DNA of 15,599 nt. Origin: Planctomycetota bacterium. GTDB lineage: Bacteria; Planctomycetota; UBA8108; UBA1146. Location: contig JAYZBV010000055.1 in the NCBI GenBank assembly GCA_036338595.1, positions 1-15,599 of the forward strand, read 5' to 3'. Positions 1 to 9,851 of this stretch are shown here, in pieces (the stretch's first letter is position 1; every line of letters begins with the position of its first letter). A program made the translations under genes and the position numbers. Under the pieces are notes generated by a model, which saw nothing but the letters and a program-made list of their open reading frames with translations, had not been told where the DNA came from and ran no database searches.

Positions 1-504
1 TTCGTGCTGCCGGAGCCGCCACCGCCGGTTGTGGTGCCGCCACTGATCGCCGCCCCACAACCGGGCGGGGTCGCGCCCGCTGCCACCAGCGAGAACACGG
101 CCCACCCACCCGCGGATCCCGACGCAGCAGCAGATCCTGCACCCGAGCCTGCGGTGGAACCTGTACTCGAGCCTGCGGTGGAACCGACGCCCGAGCCTGA
201 GCCTGCGCCGGAATCGGCGCCCGAGCCTGAGCCTGCGCCTGCGCCGGAATCGGCGCCCGAGCCTGCGGTGGAACTAGCACCCGAGCCTGCGGTGGAACCG
301 GCGCCCGAGCCTGCGGTGGAACCAGCACCCGAGCCTGCGGTGGAACCGGCGCCCGAACCTGCGGTGGAACCGGCGCCCGAACCTGCTGTGGAACCGGCGC
401 CCGAACCTGCGCCGGAACCGGCGCCCGAACCTGCGCCGGAACCGGCCGAGAGTCCCGACGACCTGGGACCTCCGCCGCCCGATGACGGTGGTGGTCGGTT
501 CTGA
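1..504 (+). CDS. 3' end of a gene entering from the left edge; C-terminal Pro/Glu/Ala-rich low-complexity tail (identity not determinable; lspA or lgt are candidates from position upstream of rluD)
   Basis: Frame is open from base 1 (F-V-L-P-E-P...) to TGA at 502-504. The repeat units are multiples of 3 and keep the frame. The 3' end overlaps the predicted start of the next gene. Confidence 0.7.
133..447 (+). repeat. Coding tandem repeat: 12-bp E-P-A-[V/P] modules, with a core of six 24-bp units (EPAVEPAP) at 259-402
   Basis: Units such as gagcctgcggtggaaccggcgccc are repeated with mostly synonymous variation, followed by EPAP x3 at 403-438. Confidence 0.95.
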
Positions 505-2677: not shown

Positions 2678-3708
2678 CTGAGATCGATCTCGTGGGCACG
2701 GTCCAGGAATCCCGCCAGCAGTGCCACCGTCGCTTCCAGATCCCTGGCATCGATGGTCTCGACCACGGTGTGGACATAGCGGCAGGGAACCGACAGTGTG
2801 ATCGCTGGTACAGCGCTACCCCCACGCTGGATCCCACCTGCGTCGGTTCCACCCATCGTCAAGATCTCCATCTGAAATGGGATCTTCTGCTCGCGGGCGA
2901 TTTCTCGCATCGCCTTGACCATCTTCGGGTTCGAGATGCTGGACGAATCGTGGATCTTGATCGCAACCCCATCTCCGAGGCTTGTGATCTTTTCATGTTC
3001 ACTGGCTCCGGGAGTGTCGCAGGCGAGCGTCACATCGATGGCCACCCCACAGTCGGGCGCTATTCGATGGGATGCTGTCATCGCACCTCGCAGCCCGATC
3101 TCTTCCTGGGTAGTCGCCACCGCATAGACGCTGACATTTTCATTGGAGTATCGACGGACTGCCTCGATCAGCGTGTAGATCGATACACGGTTATCGAGAC
3201 TCTTTCCGCTGCAACGATCACCGTTGACCTGGAACGGCTGCTGGAGCGTCACCGGATCGCCGATCTCGATGCGAGCACGAGCATCATCTGCAGACAGACT
3301 CACATCGACAAACAACTCCGGCACAGTGGGCATCTTCTTGCGATCTTCAGGCGTCATGATATGAATCGGCTTCGACCCGACCATTCCTGTGATCTCTTCG
3401 TTGGCGCTGGTGATGATGGTGACTCGCTTGGCAATCAGGGTCTTTGGATCGAATCCACCCAGCGGTGACAGACGGATGAAGCCCTTGTCGTCGATATGTT
3501 TGACCACGAACCCGATCTCATCCATGTGGCCGGCTAGCATCACCTTGGGAGACCCTGGCTTCCCTTCCTTGATGGCGATGCAATTGCCGATTCCATCGAC
3601 CTCGATCCGGTCGACGTGTGGCTCGATCTCACGACGGAAGATGGCCCGGATACGATCCTCGAATCCCGGTGCTCCGTATGCCTCACACAGTTCCTTCAGA
3701 AGCTTCAT
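2665..3708 (-). CDS. M42 family metallo-aminopeptidase (TET/FrvX-like)
   Basis: 'GAPGFE', 'GHMDEIG', 'LGGFD', 'KSLDNR', 'QEEIGLRGA', 'DVT', 'GGTDAG', 'RYVH'. Start moved from 3732 to the ATG at 3708 (MKLLKEL), which has a purine-rich SD (AGAGGGG). Confidence 0.93.
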   Translation of the reverse strand: MKLLKELCEAYGAPGFEDRIRAIFRREIEPHVDRIEVDGIGNCIAIKEGKPGSPKVMLAGHMDEIGFVVKHIDDKGFIRLSPLGGFDPKTLIAKRVTIITSANEEITGMVGSKPIHIMTPEDRKKMPTVPELFVDVSLSADDARARIEIGDPVTLQQPFQVNGDRCSGKSLDNRVSIYTLIEAVRRYSNENVSVYAVATTQEEIGLRGAMTASHRIAPDCGVAIDVTLACDTPGASEHEKITSLGDGVAIKIHDSSSISNPKMVKAMREIAREQKIPFQMEILTMGGTDAGGIQRGGSAVPAITLSVPCRYVHTVVETIDARDLEATVALLAGFLDRAHEIDLSYEG

Positions 3709-3820
3709 CCAGTCGCCCCTCTTTCGATTCATCGCGCGTCATGCGATTCGGTTGGCGGTTCCCATAACGATCTCGTCCATCGATCAGAATCCAGATCCTT
3801 ACCGCCAGAGACTCTTCTCG

Positions 3821-4183
3821 TCAAGGGAAGGACCCTGGAGGATCCCCATCGCTGGTCTCATCGGCCAGACGACTGAGATTGACCGAGCCTGCCCGCTCGG
3901 GCGTTCCATCGGGAAGAACCACCCTCCAGCGTTCAGCAACCAGGTGATGCTGCCTGGAGAAGGGGTGCGGGCGGGGATGTCTGAGAATCTGAAATGTGAA
4001 GGCGATGATCTCATCGTCTTGAATCTCGATATCCACGACATCACACCGACCCAGGTGGTGCTGGCGAAGGGAGGTGCCGGCGAGACGCGCAGGTTGCTCG
4101 AACAGCCTCCTGAGATGGGACCGGGCCCTGGACCGAAGCCTCCAGCGATTCCACCAGCAACCAGCCCTCTTCAGCAGGCTCAA
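3821..4183 (-). CDS. Hypothetical protein (120 aa, Arg/His-rich)
   Basis: The TTG start overlaps the rhomboid TGA stop (TTGA, 4183-4180), consistent with translational coupling. It fills the gap in a co-oriented gene run. No family recognised. Confidence 0.6.
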   Translation of the reverse strand: MSLLKRAGCWWNRWRLRSRARSHLRRLFEQPARLAGTSLRQHHLGRCDVVDIEIQDDEIIAFTFQILRHPRPHPFSRQHHLVAERWRVVLPDGTPERAGSVNLSRLADETSDGDPPGSFP

Positions 4184-5052
4184 GAGGAATCTCGCCTCTT
4201 CCTGCTGATCCGATTCAGATCGTCGCGTTCCTCATCGCTGAGGGCATCGATTCCTTCCCTGCTGACCTTGGTCAGCAGGTGATCGAGGCGCTCCTCCTCT
4301 CTGAGGTCGCGGCCATCGGGAGATGGAGTCGGATAATAATCTGCCGGTTTCCGTCGTCCCTGACCACGAACCGAGGAGCTCGAATCATTACTGCGAGTGT
4401 TAGAGGACGAAAAATTGATGAACCGAGGAACGATCATCAAGACGAATAACCCGAACAGGATCCCTCCGAGGTGTGCGGCGTGACCGATCCCGGTGTTGCC
4501 CCCATTGATCTGGGTGAGCAACCCCTTCAGGTCGAAGAAGGCAAATGCAGCGACGATGAGCCATGCAGGAGCTGGCAGGATTCCCCAGATCAAGATGACG
4601 TTCTTCGGATAATAGATGGCATATGCAGTGGTGATGGCACACACCGCGCCGGAGGCACCGAGCCCCGGCAAGTCTCTCACCCCCCAGAGTGGCATCGATG
4701 CCATCAGGAACGAAGAAAAGACTGCTGAACCGAGATAGAAGTAGAGAAAACGTCGCTTCCCCCACCGCGCCTCAAGCACGGGAGCAAAGGAGAGAAATAC
4801 GAGCATGTTGATGAAGAAGTGAAACAATTCGTAGTGAGAAAAAGCAGCCGTCAGAAGGGTCCAGATCTTTCCGGAGGTGACCGCATGCCAGCTGACCATG
4901 AACTGACTTCTCATTAATTCCTGCGGCAACAGATACCAGGCAATGAAGACGGAAAGATTGAGGACGATGATCATCTTCACCGCGCTCATCTGGCGGATCA
5001 TGTTGCCGGTACTGCCTGCACCCTGCATGTAGTCGCGATCGAAGATCCCCAA
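4180..5052 (-). CDS. Rhomboid family intramembrane serine protease with C-terminal DUF6576-like domain
   Basis: Multiple TM segments, 'FSHYELFHFFINM', catalytic 'GASG' and 'HAAHLGG'. Tail 'EERLDHLLTKVSREGIDALSDEERDDL' resembles DUF6576. SD AGGAAGGG precedes the TTG start. Confidence 0.93.
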   Translation of the reverse strand: MGIFDRDYMQGAGSTGNMIRQMSAVKMIIVLNLSVFIAWYLLPQELMRSQFMVSWHAVTSGKIWTLLTAAFSHYELFHFFINMLVFLSFAPVLEARWGKRRFLYFYLGSAVFSSFLMASMPLWGVRDLPGLGASGAVCAITTAYAIYYPKNVILIWGILPAPAWLIVAAFAFFDLKGLLTQINGGNTGIGHAAHLGGILFGLFVLMIVPRFINFSSSNTRSNDSSSSVRGQGRRKPADYYPTPSPDGRDLREEERLDHLLTKVSREGIDALSDEERDDLNRISRKRRDSS

Positions 5053-5065
5053 GTTGGCCCTTCCT

Positions 5066-5413
5066 TCAGGATTCCAGAACTTCCGAGTACGCCTCGTGGT
5101 GGAACCCCACGATGAGTGTCTTACCGATCTTCAGCGTCGGAGCTCTCAGGTTGCCGCTGGGTCCGACGATTCCCTTCACGAGGACATCGTCATCGGGAGC
5201 ATCCTTCTTCATATCGTAATCGACAATCTTCTTCCCCCGTGCAACCAGCACTCGATGGGCCGCCCGTGCCAGCGAGATCGCCTCGTCGGCATCGATGCGC
5301 GACTTCTTTGCATCGACACGTTGCCTGCAGGCGGGGTCATCTCCCAGGAACTCCTGGGCTCGTTTGCAGGATGTTCAGCCGTTGCGATGATACCACCAGT
5401 CGATCTTCTTCAT
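5066..5413 (-). CDS. ArsC/Spx-like thioredoxin-fold selenoprotein, 115 aa, Sec at codon 13 (UxxC)
   Basis: SD GGAGG (5423-5419) then ATG at 5413. Translation is MKKIDWWYHRNG-TGA(5377-5375)-TSCKRAQEFLG...RVLVARGKK...GPSGNLRAPTLKIGKTLIVGF..., in frame with the listed 61-aa ORF 5066..5251. A SECIS-like hairpin lies just downstream of the TGA. Confidence 0.9.
5338..5373 (-). promoter_or_regulatory. Bacterial SECIS-like stem-loop
   Basis: After the UGA come 16 nt and then CCCAGG-AGUU-CCUGGG (5358-5343). The apical loop is 22 nt from the UGA with G then U in loop positions 2-3. A lower stem CAUC/GAUG is possible (5373-5370 with 5341-5338). Confidence 0.8.
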
Positions 5414-5469
5414 CGGATCCTCCAGAAACATCTCCCCGGTGAGCAGCGACAGTGCGTAGGGGCCGTCTC

Positions 5470-5498
5470 ATTTTACCCGACCCGGCAACGGCACCCAA
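5470..5498 (-). promoter_or_regulatory. Putative sigma70-type promoter for the selenoprotein-rhomboid unit
   Basis: TTGGGT (5498-5493), 17-bp spacer, TAAAAT (5475-5470), 56 nt upstream of the ATG at 5413. Confidence 0.45.
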
Positions 5499-5579
5499 GG
5501 GCGACCAGACGATCTGTGTGGGGAAGATTCGATGGATGCGACACTCACGCCATGAGCGGCCACCCATTTGCATTTCTCG

Positions 5580-8500
5580 TCAGGAGCCTGCCGAGACCTG
5601 GTTGTTCCTGGGCAGGAGTAATCCCAGTAGACCGGCATGGGTCTCCAGCAACGTCTTTCCCCGGCCGCTGGAGAGGGTTGCCGGTTCAGGATCGGCGAGA
5701 TAGGCGACCGCTCGAACCGCTCCATCGGCACGGAGCGGAATCACTGCCAGGCTCTGGACTCCCGAAATGTAGAGTTCCTCCATCGCTTGCACCCTCGGCT
5801 CATCGACAATCCGTGCCGCGAGAATCGATTTTCCACTTTCCCAGACATCCTCGACTGCGGCGAGCGCAAGACGTTCGTGGAATCCCTTGAGCGGTGCTCC
5901 AGCAGAATCCGCGGCACAGATGACCCGCACCTCGTCCCCGCGTCGGACCAGAACCCAGCCCTGGCTGGCTCCAGCGGCGCGTACCATGCAAGCGAGCGCT
6001 TTCGGGATCAGAACCCTCGGCAAGGAGGCAGAAGCGGCCTCTGTCAGAAGTGAAGCGACTCGCAACATCTCCTCGGAATGAGATTCGGGGTCACTCACCT
6101 CGACCTCACCGCCCTTTGCTGAATCGCGCTGGATCGGATCGGAGACAGGTTCCTCGGATGGGATCTCCCGTGCGGTTCCTTCACCTGCAGGCCCCTCGCC
6201 GATGTGGTTGCTGGTCAGGTAATGATCCCTCAACGCATGGGGCAGTCTCTCTGCAAAGGCCTGGTGCAAGTCATCCGCCTCCTGGTAGCAGCGACGAGAT
6301 TCTTCCAGATTCCTCGATTCGATGTGAAGTTCCGCTTGCTCCAGGAGTGCTGCGGCGCGAAGCGGTCGATCCCCACAGTCTCGCCCCGAATTTTCAGCCT
6401 CTGCCAGAAGTTCGAGCGCGGTCGCGCTGTCGCCACCGTTCTTCCTGAGCCAGCGCGCTCTCAGCAGACGAGCCTTACCCTCGAACCCGACATGAGAAAG
6501 GTCAGCGAGCACCGTCGTGGCGCGCTCCAGTTCCTCATCGGCGCGAGAGGATTCCCCCCCCTCGATGTGCAGTTCTGCCAGTTCCAGCAGGCATTCGACC
6601 AGACCGATCCCGGTTCCGGCACGCGCGTGGACTCCCAGCGCACGGAGAAGATCGCCTTCTGCTCCGCGGCGATCCGCCCTGAAACGACGGATGCGTCCGC
6701 GGGCCAGGTGGTTTCTGACTCCCAGGAATCTCATTCTCTGATCCTGGCTGATCTCCAGTGAAGCCTCGATTCTCTGCTCGGCGGCATCCAGGTCACCGCA
6801 GATGAGCAACACCTCGGCTTCTCTGTGCAAAGCGATGGCCCTGCCGGAGAGGTCTCCCACCTCATCCGCCATCTCCATCGCCTGCTGCGCCAGCTCCAGA
6901 GCCTCGATCGGCTCTCCTGCTGCCAGATACGCCTCGGATAGGGAATTGAGAGAACTGATCATGGCGGGCACATCGCCGAGGTCCTCGCGAATTTCCATCG
7001 CCCGGCGATGAAAATCTCTCGCCTGGTCCACTTCACCTCGGCAAAGAGAAGCGCTTCCGATGCAACTGAAGAAGATGGCGTGCTCTGCGGATTTTTCTTC
7101 ATCGCCTGCGAGGGAAAGTCCCTCTCCGCTGATCTTCATCGCACGGTCATAATCGCCGATACAAACCTGAAGCCATGCCAGTTGGCTGAGCACTCGAAGT
7201 TGCTCACCATCACGATCGCCACCTTCGAGACGCGAAACCACCTCGGACGCCTCGCGTACCAGGCGAAGTGCTCCCGGGTAGTCACCGCGAATCTCATCGA
7301 TCTTACCTAGCTTTCTCAGCGCTCGAACCCGACACAGATCCAGTTCGACCGTCAACGCTTCCGGCTCGATCCGGGTCTCCTGGATGATCTCCAGTGATGA
7401 CTGCGCCAGGTCCAGTTCCCCGACCACGGTTGCTGCATCCCCGATCCGTTCATGGATGGCAAACCAGTCGACGACACGTTCTTCTCTCTGCTCGATCTGG
7501 AGCAAGGCTCCTCGGTAGTGCTCAAGAGCCTTCGAGTGGGCGTGCATCTCCTTCATCGCATCTCCTGCAGCCAGAAGGTGCTCCAGTGCACGTTCTGGAT
7601 GATCGGAGAGTTGGTAATGATGCGAAAGTTCTTCCCTGACGGGATCGAGATCTTCGTGGTGATGCTGCTCGATCGCATCGGCTAGCATTCCGTGCAACCT
7701 GCGCCCCTCACTGGGGGGGATGTCTCTGCTGACGATCTCTCGCAACTTCGGCTGCTGGATCGAGTAGACCGGCCTGCCTCCCTCGAGAGATCTACCGATC
7801 ATCCCTCTCTCCTCCAGCTCCCTGATCTGCTGGCGGAGGCCTTCTCCCAGACCGTCAATCGCCTCGATCAGTCGCAACGGCACCGGTCGACCATGCAAGG
7901 AGATCAAGCGCAAGATGCTCCGCGATTCCTCGCTGATCACCTTCACCCTGCGATGTAGAACCTGATGAATCCCTGCGGGAAGTTCGACACGGGCCAGATC
8001 TCCCCCGCCTCGGATGCTCCACGCCTCACCCTGACGCTGGATGATGCCTTCCTCCTGAAGGACCTTCAGCATCTCGACGATGAAGAGTGGATTGCCACCG
8101 GTTCGTTCCTCTAGCCGGTCGAGAAATGTCGATGGAATCTCCTCGACTTGCAGCACATGGTGGATCAACTCGGTGATCTGGGTCCTGCCGAACCGCTTCA
8201 ATTTCAGGTCGTCCACCACAGATGATTCCCGAACTCCATCCAGGAATTCTGTAGTGACCGCTGAACGCTTCTCGTCATCTCGAATCGTGACTACGATGAA
8301 GATGCGTCCGCAACTTCCATCGCGTTGCAGCCTCTGCATCAGGCGCGATAGCAAGGCGATGCTCGGATCGTCTGCCCAGTGAAGATTATTGAGCACCAGC
8401 ACACAGGGATGGATCGCCGAGGCCTCCTCGAGAAACGCTGCAATCCGGTCCATGAAACGGACACGATCCCGATCGGGGCGATCTCCGCTCTCCTGAACAA

Positions 8501-9851
8501 CGGTCTCGCCCGGGTCCTTCAATCGCGGACAGATCCTGCGCAGTTGTTCCTCATATTTTCGAAACAACTCGGAATCGAGTCCCATCGAAAGGGCTAGTTG
8601 TTCGACGATCGAACGAAACGGATGGTAGGCATCGCGAACCGATTCATGACAGTTACCGCCAAAGAGCGGCACCTCTCTCAATTTCAGGTGGTGACTAAAC
8701 TCGTCGATGAGGCGCGATTTTCCGATTCCAATCTCTCCTGATATCAGCATCAGAGGCCGACTCAGGTCTGCAGGACGGTGCTTCCCACCATCGCGTAGTG
8801 AAAGACCCAGGTTGCGCTCTGCGCTCTCCCTGAGGTGTTCCAGTTCAAGGCGGCGCCCCACCAATCTGCTGCTGTGCAGGTAGGAGAGTTGCGTTTCAGC
8901 GGTCTCCACCTGCCAGTGTTGCCCCGCCCCTGCACTGAGTGCATGGATGATCTCTCGGGCACTGGAAAATCTGTCCTCGGGATCCTTTTCGAGCAACCGC
9001 AAGACGATCTCTATCAGATACTCCGGCTCACCTTTCAGGTCCGCACGCATCTCTTCGCGCCAGTTCCCACCAGAACGACCGGTCGTGGAACCGTCTGCCG
9101 CAACAAATGGCAAGCGACCGGTCAGGATCTGATGGAGCGAAACACCGAAGGAGTAGAGGTCGGCTCTCCTGTCGGGAGTGCCTCCATCGATGATCTCGGG
9201 AGCCACATAGTGCAGGGTTCCCTTGATGGCAAAATCAAAGGTCCCGGAGATCTTCTCTGCGAGTCCGAAATCGATCAACTTCGCACGCGGGGGTCCAAGG
9301 CACCGGTCGGTAGAAGCGGGTTGGTCCTCGACCTGGACGATTTTCGATGTTTCATCTTCGCCAATTTGCCGCGATCGCGTCACGAGGATGTTATCTGGCT
9401 TGATATCGAAATGAACATAGCCCTGGGAATGGGTGTATTCCAGAGCCCTGCAGATCTGTACGACTATATCCAGAAACTCCTGCTCCTCGAAGGTCGTGGA
9501 TGCGCCGAGAAGATCGTCTCCGCGAATGAACTCGCTGACGATGAACCAGTCGTGGCTGTCGGAAACCCTGCCGAAATCATGCACTCTCGCCAGATTCGGA
9601 TGGCGTAATCTGGTCAGCGCCTCGTACTCGACCTTGGACCATTCCCCCGAATCCTCGACTCGATCGGATCGAAGTAACTTGAGGGCAACCTTGCGCCGCA
9701 CCTGGAGGATGTCCTCGCACAGGAACACGGTACCCATCGCTCCGGCACCGAGCTGCCGCAGCACCCGATACCTGCCGTTGATGCAATCTCCTGCGCTGAA
9801 GGAACCCATGATGACCCCGGGAACGGGGCTCCAGGGCGTCGCAAACGACAC
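5580..9851 (-). CDS. Multidomain Ser/Thr protein kinase: Hanks kinase + AAA_16/STAND-like NTPase + TPR repeats + C-terminal GAF-like domain
   Basis: Kinase motifs LGAGAMGTV, VALK, HPNL, HFDIKPDN, DFG, GTLHYVAPE, ADLYSFG. NTPase motifs 'LVGR..EL', Walker A GEIGIGKS, 'LHWAD', 'TGGNPLF'. Ala-rich TPR helices. GAF-like end 'SLAVIPL...VRAVAYL'. Start could alternatively be the ATG at 9809. Confidence 0.92.
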   Translation of the reverse strand: MSFATPWSPVPGVIMGSFSAGDCINGRYRVLRQLGAGAMGTVFLCEDILQVRRKVALKLLRSDRVEDSGEWSKVEYEALTRLRHPNLARVHDFGRVSDSHDWFIVSEFIRGDDLLGASTTFEEQEFLDIVVQICRALEYTHSQGYVHFDIKPDNILVTRSRQIGEDETSKIVQVEDQPASTDRCLGPPRAKLIDFGLAEKISGTFDFAIKGTLHYVAPEIIDGGTPDRRADLYSFGVSLHQILTGRLPFVAADGSTTGRSGGNWREEMRADLKGEPEYLIEIVLRLLEKDPEDRFSSAREIIHALSAGAGQHWQVETAETQLSYLHSSRLVGRRLELEHLRESAERNLGLSLRDGGKHRPADLSRPLMLISGEIGIGKSRLIDEFSHHLKLREVPLFGGNCHESVRDAYHPFRSIVEQLALSMGLDSELFRKYEEQLRRICPRLKDPGETVVQESGDRPDRDRVRFMDRIAAFLEEASAIHPCVLVLNNLHWADDPSIALLSRLMQRLQRDGSCGRIFIVVTIRDDEKRSAVTTEFLDGVRESSVVDDLKLKRFGRTQITELIHHVLQVEEIPSTFLDRLEERTGGNPLFIVEMLKVLQEEGIIQRQGEAWSIRGGGDLARVELPAGIHQVLHRRVKVISEESRSILRLISLHGRPVPLRLIEAIDGLGEGLRQQIRELEERGMIGRSLEGGRPVYSIQQPKLREIVSRDIPPSEGRRLHGMLADAIEQHHHEDLDPVREELSHHYQLSDHPERALEHLLAAGDAMKEMHAHSKALEHYRGALLQIEQREERVVDWFAIHERIGDAATVVGELDLAQSSLEIIQETRIEPEALTVELDLCRVRALRKLGKIDEIRGDYPGALRLVREASEVVSRLEGGDRDGEQLRVLSQLAWLQVCIGDYDRAMKISGEGLSLAGDEEKSAEHAIFFSCIGSASLCRGEVDQARDFHRRAMEIREDLGDVPAMISSLNSLSEAYLAAGEPIEALELAQQAMEMADEVGDLSGRAIALHREAEVLLICGDLDAAEQRIEASLEISQDQRMRFLGVRNHLARGRIRRFRADRRGAEGDLLRALGVHARAGTGIGLVECLLELAELHIEGGESSRADEELERATTVLADLSHVGFEGKARLLRARWLRKNGGDSATALELLAEAENSGRDCGDRPLRAAALLEQAELHIESRNLEESRRCYQEADDLHQAFAERLPHALRDHYLTSNHIGEGPAGEGTAREIPSEEPVSDPIQRDSAKGGEVEVSDPESHSEEMLRVASLLTEAASASLPRVLIPKALACMVRAAGASQGWVLVRRGDEVRVICAADSAGAPLKGFHERLALAAVEDVWESGKSILAARIVDEPRVQAMEELYISGVQSLAVIPLRADGAVRAVAYLADPEPATLSSGRGKTLLETHAGLLGLLLPRNNQVSAGS

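What the first reader, a model, noticed from the sequence alone, without database searches (positions are those of the whole stretch)
5066..5413. Hidden selenoprotein: ArsC/Spx-like thioredoxin fold with a U-T-S-C motif
Seen: the ORF track shows only a 61-aa fragment, but the frame extends upstream through a single in-frame TGA (5377-5375) to an ATG at 5413 with a GGAGG SD. This gives MKKIDWWYHRNG-U-TSCKRAQEFLG...GNLRAP...LIVGF (115 aa). Known: ArsC/YffB/Spx proteins begin with Y-x4-C-x-x-C-x-x-A (B. subtilis Spx has CTSCRKA) and end with an R-P cis-proline motif and 'VGF'. Sec typically replaces the first Cys of CxxC, and ArsC-like selenoproteins have been described, so the family is not new, but standard callers truncate such genes or call them pseudogenes. 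Inference: the UGA is decoded as Sec and the organism has Sec machinery. An extra Cys29 could take part in resolution.
Basis: partly seen in the sequence, partly recalled or inferred. Interest (0 to 1): 0.85.

Follow-up and report, generated by a model that had tools for sequence, protein, structure and literature searches.

The report
Known ArsC-like selenoprotein gene, confirmed
This small bacterial gene has an internal UGA codon and a conserved RNA hairpin behind it, so it very likely makes a selenium-containing redox protein, but it is an ordinary member of a family catalogued in 2008 whose substrate is still untested.

Summary
The gene is as described: 115 codons, 5413-5066 (-), one in-frame TGA at codon 13 giving U-T-S-C. 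It scores 129.5 bits against NCBIfam NF041106 'ArsC family (seleno)protein' (cut-off 85), the 'Arsenate reductase 2, UxxC' family of the 2008 GOS survey. The genome has selA, selB, selD and tRNA-Sec. All 35 matches in 61 genomes carry a TGA; Cys forms exist. All 54 tested TGA-only genomes have selA, against 2 of 10 whose copy has no stop. Two reader details fail: Cys29 is in only 3 of 30 loci, and the motif is R-A-P, not R-P. ArsC and Spx signatures are partly missing and no arsenic gene was identified among 171 neighbours, so a general selenol/thiol oxidoreductase is the likeliest role. Sec insertion and function are untested. This scan has noted the family in other genomes. Real, but ordinary.

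The parts
5066..5413 (-). Coding sequence, 115 aa with Sec predicted at residue 13; NF041106 ArsC-family (seleno)protein
5419..5423 (-). GGAGG Shine-Dalgarno-like site, 5 nt before the ATG
   Evidence: purine-rich sites before the start in most relatives (by eye)
5375..5377 (-). In-frame TGA, codon 13, aligned with the first Cys of CxxC in homologs
5366..5377 (-). U-T-S-C motif (residues 13-16) at the start of predicted helix 1; C16 invariant in 42 of 42
5343..5358 (-). bSECIS-type hairpin: 6-bp stem, AGUU loop (5352-5349) starting 22 nt after the UGA, -10.0 kcal/mol; overlaps codons 19-24
5213..5254 (-). Predicted beta-hairpin (strands 54-59 and 62-67) around the conserved [RK]59-G60-K61 turn, where Spx/YffB are helical
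   Evidence: model only
5138..5146 (-). R90-A91-P92 within GNLRAP; P92 aligns with the cis-Pro of Spx/YffB, Ala takes the place of the Arg that precedes it there
4180..5052 (-). Downstream rhomboid-family gene, 13 nt after the stop (possible operon partner; linked only in close relatives)
5580..9851 (-). Upstream Ser/Thr kinase-AAA-TPR-GAF gene, ends 166 nt before the ATG

Best explanation
The gene belongs to the catalogued NF041106 family, and its UGA is very likely decoded as selenocysteine, giving a small protein that likely works as a general selenol/thiol oxidoreductase rather than as an arsenate reductase. Shown: gene, family membership, Sec machinery, conserved UGA and hairpin. Inferred: SelB with Sec-tRNA binds the hairpin 22 nt downstream and inserts Sec13 (about 0.97). 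Predicted: a thioredoxin/glutaredoxin core with U13-x-x-C16 at the start of helix 1 next to Pro92. Inferred mechanism: the Sec13 selenolate attacks a substrate disulfide or oxidised thiol, Cys16 resolves the mixed bond to a Se-S bridge, and the thioredoxin reductase system re-reduces it. The invariant basic residues (R10, K37, R/K59, K61, R90) probably select an anionic or acidic substrate that is not identified.
For: Family. Machinery: selA 526.5 bits, selB 390.4, selD 348.7 (itself with one TGA), tRNA-Sec with TCA anticodon. Co-occurrence: selA in 54 of 54 and selB in 52 of 54 TGA-only genomes, both in 2 of 2 genomes with both forms, and in only 2 of 10 genomes whose copy has no stop. Hairpin: meets the four published bSECIS constraints; inner six pairs intact in all 29 distinct close sequences, 4 two-sided changes, 1 of 500 shuffles as high; 4 of the 6 most codon-frozen positions of 65 lie in it; in 65 distinct distant sequences a register shifted by one base shows 48 two-sided changes, 0 of 500 shuffles; 94 of 109 distinct TGA sequences fit one of the two registers, 0 of 12 TGC sequences do. 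Fold: AlphaFold2 pLDDT 94.6; best matches Spx, YffB, NrdH and glutaredoxins. Redox partner: thioredoxin reductase over cut-off. No resolving Cys other than C16 is conserved. Sporadic redox neighbours: DCC1-like thiol-disulfide protein at 2 of 83 downstream positions, a thioredoxin at 1 of 88 upstream.
Against: No protein-level evidence of Sec. No activity data found (0 papers). The hairpin is partly dictated by the protein: 504 of 3000 synonymous recodings of the same peptide gave a qualifying hairpin. My strict perfect-stem test passed only 3 of 15 distant TGA genes at -7.5 kcal/mol (6 of 15 at -5; Cys genes 0 and 2 of 9), and 15 of 109 TGA sequences fit neither register. The registers were read off the same sequences they were counted on, and kin are not independent; 7 of the 8 sel-less Cys genomes are one family. 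selA is also common in genomes without the gene (10 of 14). Neighbourhoods give no substrate. Fold scores are middling (best Z 8.1, TM about 0.5). The basic surface and Spx as best profile hit leave a nucleic-acid or regulator role open.
Confidence: 0.62

Rival explanations
1. It is a selenoprotein arsenate reductase: Sec13 attacks arsenate held by the basic residues and Cys16 or a low-mass thiol releases arsenite.
For: Family name; weak Pfam ArsC hit (17.6 bits, cut-off 24); H9-x3-U13 fits the first half of the HX3CX3R motif; R/K59 aligns with Spx Arg60, the position I recall as matching E. coli ArsC Arg60; no PF03960 ArsC found in this genome and its only LMWP domain is a Sua5 fusion, so the job could be vacant.
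Against: The Arg before the cis-Pro is Ala or Ser in 42 of 42; position x3 after Sec is variable (K in 17 of 42); no arsenic-resistance gene identified among 171 nearest-neighbour ORFs of 96 distant loci (one FMN reductase and three methyltransferases fall far below the ArsH and ArsM cut-offs); no Acr3/SBF-family transporter found in this 88%-complete genome.
Confidence: 0.13
2. It is an Spx-like redox-sensing regulator whose Sec13-Cys16 bridge switches binding to DNA or RNA polymerase.
For: Spx chains are the best profile hits (E 7e-10) and best Foldseek hits. Several Spx DNA-contact residues (T11, S12, R14/K15, R60, K62, R91, Y105-E107) align with conserved T14, S15, R/K18, R/K59, K61, R90 and GF[NH]xE. 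Median net charge +5. No conserved operon, as for many global regulators.
Against: TIGR01617 score 16.6 against cut-off 75.05. G52 is not kept (A51; Gly in 9 of 42), the RPI motif is R-A-P-T, and the C-terminal helix that contacts sigma is absent. The model has a beta-hairpin where Spx has the helices that bind alpha-CTD and DNA (TM about 0.5, rmsd 6-7 A).
Confidence: 0.12
3. It is a selenoprotein that binds a metal or metalloid through U-x-x-C (chaperone or sensor) without turning over disulfides.
For: Sec is proposed as a metal ligand in other small selenoproteins (passage of PMC13188914); MoeB/MoeZ-rhodanese genes lie directly upstream in 7 of 96 distant loci and an Rrf2 regulator nearby in 4.
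Against: Those links are confined to single clades; the Pro aligned with the thioredoxin cis-Pro is invariant, which by established knowledge (recalled) disfavours metal binding at CxxC.
Confidence: 0.1
4. The TGA is a nonsense mutation, an assembly error or a reassigned codon (Trp), and no selenoprotein is made.
For: Some database entries show Trp at this place (12 of 70 with a residue there; P0004, P0016).
Against: Same TGA in 35 of 35 matches and 76 of 80 metagenome loci; confirmed by contigs of 4 runs; TGA is this genome's main stop; alternative residue in DNA is always Cys; the Trp entries are best explained as gene-caller code choices (inference).
Confidence: 0.03

Closest known systems
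NCBIfam NF041106 ArsC_rel_Se_1 'ArsC family (seleno)protein' = 'Arsenate reductase-like protein, UxxC' (PMC13188914 table) = 'Arsenate reductase 2, UxxC' (PMC2398784)
   Same: 129.5 bits over model positions 1-107; same G-U-T-S-C and GNLRAP motifs and length as the GOS Dataset S1 sequences (20 GNLRAP occurrences).
   Different: Nothing of kind. This clade uses a 4-nt-loop hairpin register, most distant members a 3-nt-loop register.
Spx/MgsR regulators (TIGR01617; PDB 1z3e, 7f75)
   Same: Thioredoxin core with an inserted subdomain; CTSC-type motif; basic residues at Spx 60, 62 and 91.
   Different: Far below cut-off; no G52, no RPI, no C-terminal helix; predicted beta-hairpin in the insert.
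YffB (PDB 1rw1) and Grx-dependent ArsC (PF03960)
   Same: Best VIA match 1rw1, Z 8.1, rmsd 3.0 A over 85 residues; Pro at the cis-Pro position; C-terminal VGF.
   Different: Second Cys present; Arg before the Pro replaced by Ala; Pfam score below cut-off; no ars context found.
NrdH-redoxin / small glutaredoxin-like proteins (PDB 1h75, 3zij)
   Same: Core superposes at Z 7.0-7.2, rmsd 2.6-2.8 A over 71-73 residues; CxxC-type dithiol.
   Different: About 40-residue insert; Sec at the attacking position; GlrX_YruB score 25.8 against cut-off 88.55.

Membership tests
NF041106 ArsC family (seleno)protein | Score above the curated cut-off of 85 bits | tested here: met
   129.5 bits; 121.9 bits on the genome, single copy
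NF041106 ArsC family (seleno)protein | U/C-x-x-C near the N-terminus and GNLRAP motif as in the published set | tested here: met
Bacterial selenoprotein gene | In-frame UGA aligned with Cys in homologs | tested here: met
   TGC in 9 of 9 stop-free loci fetched and 4 of 80 metagenome loci
Bacterial selenoprotein gene | bSECIS: 3-9 nt loop with G in its first two places, 4-16 bp stem, 16-37 nt from UGA, at most -7.5 kcal/mol (PMC13188914) | tested here: met
   4-nt loop, G second, 6 bp, 22 nt, -10.0 kcal/mol; 30 of 30 close loci; covariation
Bacterial selenoprotein gene | selA, selB, selC, selD in the genome | tested here: met
   all over cut-off; the assembly is 88.3% complete, 7.2% contaminated, and they lie on other contigs
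Bacterial selenoprotein gene | Sec found in the protein | not testable with these tools
   needs 75Se labelling or mass spectrometry
Grx-dependent arsenate reductase ArsC (PF03960) | Pfam score above 24 bits | tested here: not met
   17.6 bits
Grx-dependent arsenate reductase ArsC (PF03960) | HX3CX3R motif (PMC3169414) | tested here: not met
   H9-x3-U13 fits; residue 17 is Lys here and variable in the family
Grx-dependent arsenate reductase ArsC (PF03960) | Arg triad 60/94/107 | tested here: inconclusive
   R/K59 present; Arg before the Pro is Ala/Ser in 42 of 42 but an invariant R90 lies one place earlier; Arg94 equivalent not mapped; E. coli ArsC was not aligned directly
Grx-dependent arsenate reductase ArsC (PF03960) | ars operon context | tested here: not met
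   none identified among 171 nearest ORFs of 96 loci; one ORF per side only, many were shadow frames
Grx-dependent arsenate reductase ArsC (PF03960) | Arsenate reduction | not testable with these tools
   bench assay
Spx/MgsR (TIGR01617) | Score above 75.05 bits | tested here: not met
   16.6 bits
Spx/MgsR (TIGR01617) | CXXC motif | tested here: met
   as UxxC
Spx/MgsR (TIGR01617) | G52 and RPI motif (PMC8501982) | tested here: not met
   A51 (Gly in 9 of 42); R-A-P-T
Spx/MgsR (TIGR01617) | Binding to RNA polymerase alpha-CTD | not tested
   no complex model was obtained; the question is open

The most novel reading that the evidence does not exclude
NF041106 is a selenium-based Spx-like redox switch: the Sec13-Cys16 bridge controls a basic nucleic-acid-binding face (R10, R/K59-G60-K61 on a beta-hairpin that replaces Spx's helices, R90), making it a selenoprotein regulator of gene expression, kept in single copy across many Planctomycetota.
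Probability: 0.1. Interest if true: 0.65.

Novelty: new member of a known kind. Interest (0 to 1): 0.15.

Why it matters
Little for this gene alone: the family has been listed since 2008 and has a curated model. It matters modestly in three ways. Annotation: 80 of 150 database representatives lack the active-site column and 12 more carry Trp there. Distribution: 73 of 301 genomes of the phylum carry the family, mostly as the TGA form. Testability: the two hairpin registers, the natural Cys forms and the predicted beta-hairpin give concrete constructs for a family on which I found no experimental paper.

Tried and rejected
Cys29 as resolving residue: 3 of 30 loci, rejected. Alternative genetic code: rejected. 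Sigma-70 promoter or terminator in 3600-6200: 0 found, uninformative. Rfam on 4900-5700: 0 matches. Fusions as a clue: 3 longer hits, each from one contig; two look like frame read-throughs of neighbouring genes and one like a chimeric gene call, not used. Conserved neighbourhood beyond the family level: none. Glutathione synthetase: no hit over cut-off, which is weak in an 88% genome. RNA libraries: contigs of 3 studies lie on the gene and two bridge the TGA, but the runs were found with this stretch and are contigs, so transcription is not shown; runs with shares of 0.04 or less are no evidence of habitat. ESM Atlas with the Cys homolog P0007 returned ArsC-family and unnamed clusters only. 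Sequence look-up in earlier findings: nothing. Haft and Tolstoy 2025 (PMC12013261) was not held, so I saw nothing of it. No model of a complex with alpha-CTD was obtained. The upstream intergenic ORFs (78 and 87 aa) were not pursued.

Full report
Observation. On the minus strand a GGAGG lies 5 nt before an ATG at 5413; the frame runs through one TGA at 5377-5375 (codon 13) to a TGA stop at 5068-5066, 115 residues in all. Standard ORF calling gives only the last 61 residues. Contigs from 4 of 4 DNA runs (4 studies) bridge the codon with 0-1 differences from the window and none listed at the TGA. TGA ends 696 of 1080 long ORFs in the genome, so it is a normal stop here. The organism is probably a marine planctomycete: 17 of 22 titled hits are Planctomycetota records and the runs that hold the DNA are mostly marine; this is inference.

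Family. The read-through protein scores 129.5 bits on NCBIfam NF041106 (cut-off 85) and far below cut-off on Spx/MgsR, GlrX_YruB and Pfam ArsC. A 2026 review lists NF041106 as 'Arsenate reductase-like protein, UxxC' and cites the 2008 GOS survey (PMC13188914, passages and table rows seen). That survey counted 42 sequences of 'Arsenate reductase 2, UxxC' (PMC2398784, passages), and its Dataset S1 sequences show the same motifs (supplement passages). ArsC-like selenoproteins also appear in PMC1794560 and PMC9312934 (passages). One search for activity data found 0 papers; the library lacks most subscription journals and PMC12013261 was not held, so absence from print is not shown.

Sec machinery. 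selA, selB and selD pass their cut-offs, selD has its own in-frame TGA, and a tRNA with TCA anticodon passes RF01852; selA, selD and selC lie together on contig C72. The assembly is 88.3% complete and 7.2% contaminated.

Conservation of the UGA. 35 of 61 genomes (own plus 60 relatives) have a match and all 35 contain one TGA; I checked its position in the 30 loci fetched. In 301 genomes of the phylum, 73 pass the family cut-off with 76 matches, 64 with a TGA and 12 without a stop; 9 of those 12 were fetched and all have TGC. Of 80 metagenome loci, 76 have TGA and 4 TGC (these are the 80 best of 585, ranked by likeness to a Sec-form query, so the ratio is biased). I tested 80 genomes for selA and selB: 54 of the 61 TGA-only genomes (six close relatives and the own genome were left out), 2 with both forms, 10 with only a stop-free copy, 14 without a match. 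selA was found in 54 of 54 (one partial, below cut-off), 2 of 2, 2 of 10 and 10 of 14; selB in 52 of 54, 2 of 2, 2 of 10 and 10 of 14. No TGA form was seen in a genome lacking both. Seven of the eight sel-less Cys genomes are one family, so this is few independent events.

A 6-bp stem with an AGUU loop starts at 5358; the loop begins 22 nt after the UGA. It meets the four published bSECIS constraints in 30 of 30 close loci, own included. The inner six pairs are intact in all 29 distinct sequences, with 4 two-sided changes. Among 65 conserved codon positions in 22 ungapped genes, 6 use one codon in at least 95% of genes and 4 of these are Q20-L23. Distant homologs use a register shifted by one base with a 3-nt loop: 48 two-sided changes in 65 distinct sequences, 0 of 500 shuffles as high, and lower scores for slid controls. 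94 of 109 distinct TGA sequences fit one register, 0 of 12 TGC sequences do. Against: 504 of 3000 synonymous recodings also give a qualifying hairpin; the strict test passes only 3 of 15 distant TGA genes; 15 TGA sequences fit neither register; the registers were derived from these same sequences, and relatedness inflates shuffle tests.

Protein anatomy. AlphaFold2 on a 42-sequence alignment (Cys for Sec) gives pLDDT 94.6: a thioredoxin-type core with the motif at the start of helix 1 and an insert holding two helices and a beta-hairpin at 54-67. Profile search finds Spx first (E 7e-10), then YffB and glutaredoxins. Foldseek has no hit at E 0.001 or better, Spx at TM about 0.5; VIA gives YffB Z 8.1, NrdH Z 7.2. 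In YffB the insert is helical (PMC3169414, passages), so the hairpin is a predicted difference. Invariant in 42 sequences: R10, U/C13, C16, A35, G60, G84, G87, L89, R90, P92, G103. The Arg that precedes the cis-Pro in Spx and YffB is Ala or Ser; Spx G52 and the C-terminal helix are missing, while counterparts of several Spx DNA-contact residues remain (PMC8501982 and PMC2801614, passages). Cys29 occurs in 3 of 30 loci.

Context. In close relatives the gene follows a kinase gene (24 loci) and often a periplasmic binding protein gene (20 loci) and precedes a rhomboid gene (27 loci). None of this holds further out. For 96 distant loci I scanned one long ORF per side where there was room (88 upstream, 83 downstream); neighbours were diverse and none was identified as an arsenic gene. 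The genome has thioredoxin reductase; no GshB over cut-off, Acr3/SBF or PF03960 ArsC was found.

Mechanism. Shown: gene, family, machinery, UGA and hairpin conservation. Inferred with high confidence: Sec at residue 13. Inferred with moderate confidence: Sec13 attacks a disulfide or oxidised thiol, Cys16 resolves, the Trx system recycles. The chemistry is taken from established thioredoxin-fold knowledge, recalled. Arsenate reductase, Spx-like regulator and metal-binding roles remain as rivals; binding to RNA polymerase was not examined.

Verdict. Observation confirmed, interpretation supported with two details corrected. New member of a known family; eight earlier notes of this scan report the same family in other genomes, which I treat as agreement and not as evidence. 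Interest 0.15.

Noticed in passing
G000 contigs C12, C21, C23, C28, C34, C38, C77 (loci L173-L181): Further UxxC thioredoxin-fold selenoprotein candidates: 9 of 10 hand-picked TGA read-through ORFs hit thioredoxin-like models at the UxxC domain, none passes a curated selenoprotein cut-off. Several have signal-peptide-like starts and long extra domains. C21 and C34 are near-identical copies (possible bin redundancy) and carry a hairpin with the same AGUU loop at 22 nt. Conservation not tested; some may fall outside curated families.
   Followed up: partly
window 5414-5579; compare L011, L041:3135-3911: A periplasmic binding protein gene (PF01497, weakly BtuF-like) lies between the kinase and the selenoprotein gene in 20 of 30 close loci but is missing here, and tblastn found it nowhere in this assembly.
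   Followed up: partly
window 5414-5500 (-): A motif like CTTGGG-N(9-11)-TCGGGTAAAA recurs upstream of the start in many close relatives (by eye); possible promoter. The sigma-70 scan found nothing.
   Followed up: no
window 3821-4183 (-): 120-aa ORF overlapping the rhomboid stop, conserved in 25 of 30 close loci, no Pfam family.
   Followed up: partly
window 5580-9851 (-): 1423-aa Ser/Thr kinase-AAA-TPR-GAF protein.
   Followed up: no
G000:C72:32145-34795: selA, selD (with in-frame TGA) and tRNA-Sec are adjacent; selB is on C108.
   Followed up: yes
L072, L075-L077, L085, L087, L089, L135, L147, L152, L159, L164: TGA forms with A/S-D at residues 19-20 fit neither hairpin register and fold into longer bulged stems; possibly a third SECIS type in this family.
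   Followed up: no
G133, G297; G271, G335: Two genomes hold both a TGA form and a stop-free form; two hold only the Cys form although they have selA and selB.
   Followed up: partly
G000:C23:21215-21658: A protein with two RNA polymerase alpha-CTD-like domains besides the true rpoA on C15.
   Followed up: no
window 1-504 (+): Pro/Glu-rich tandem repeat ORF running in from the contig start.
   Followed up: no
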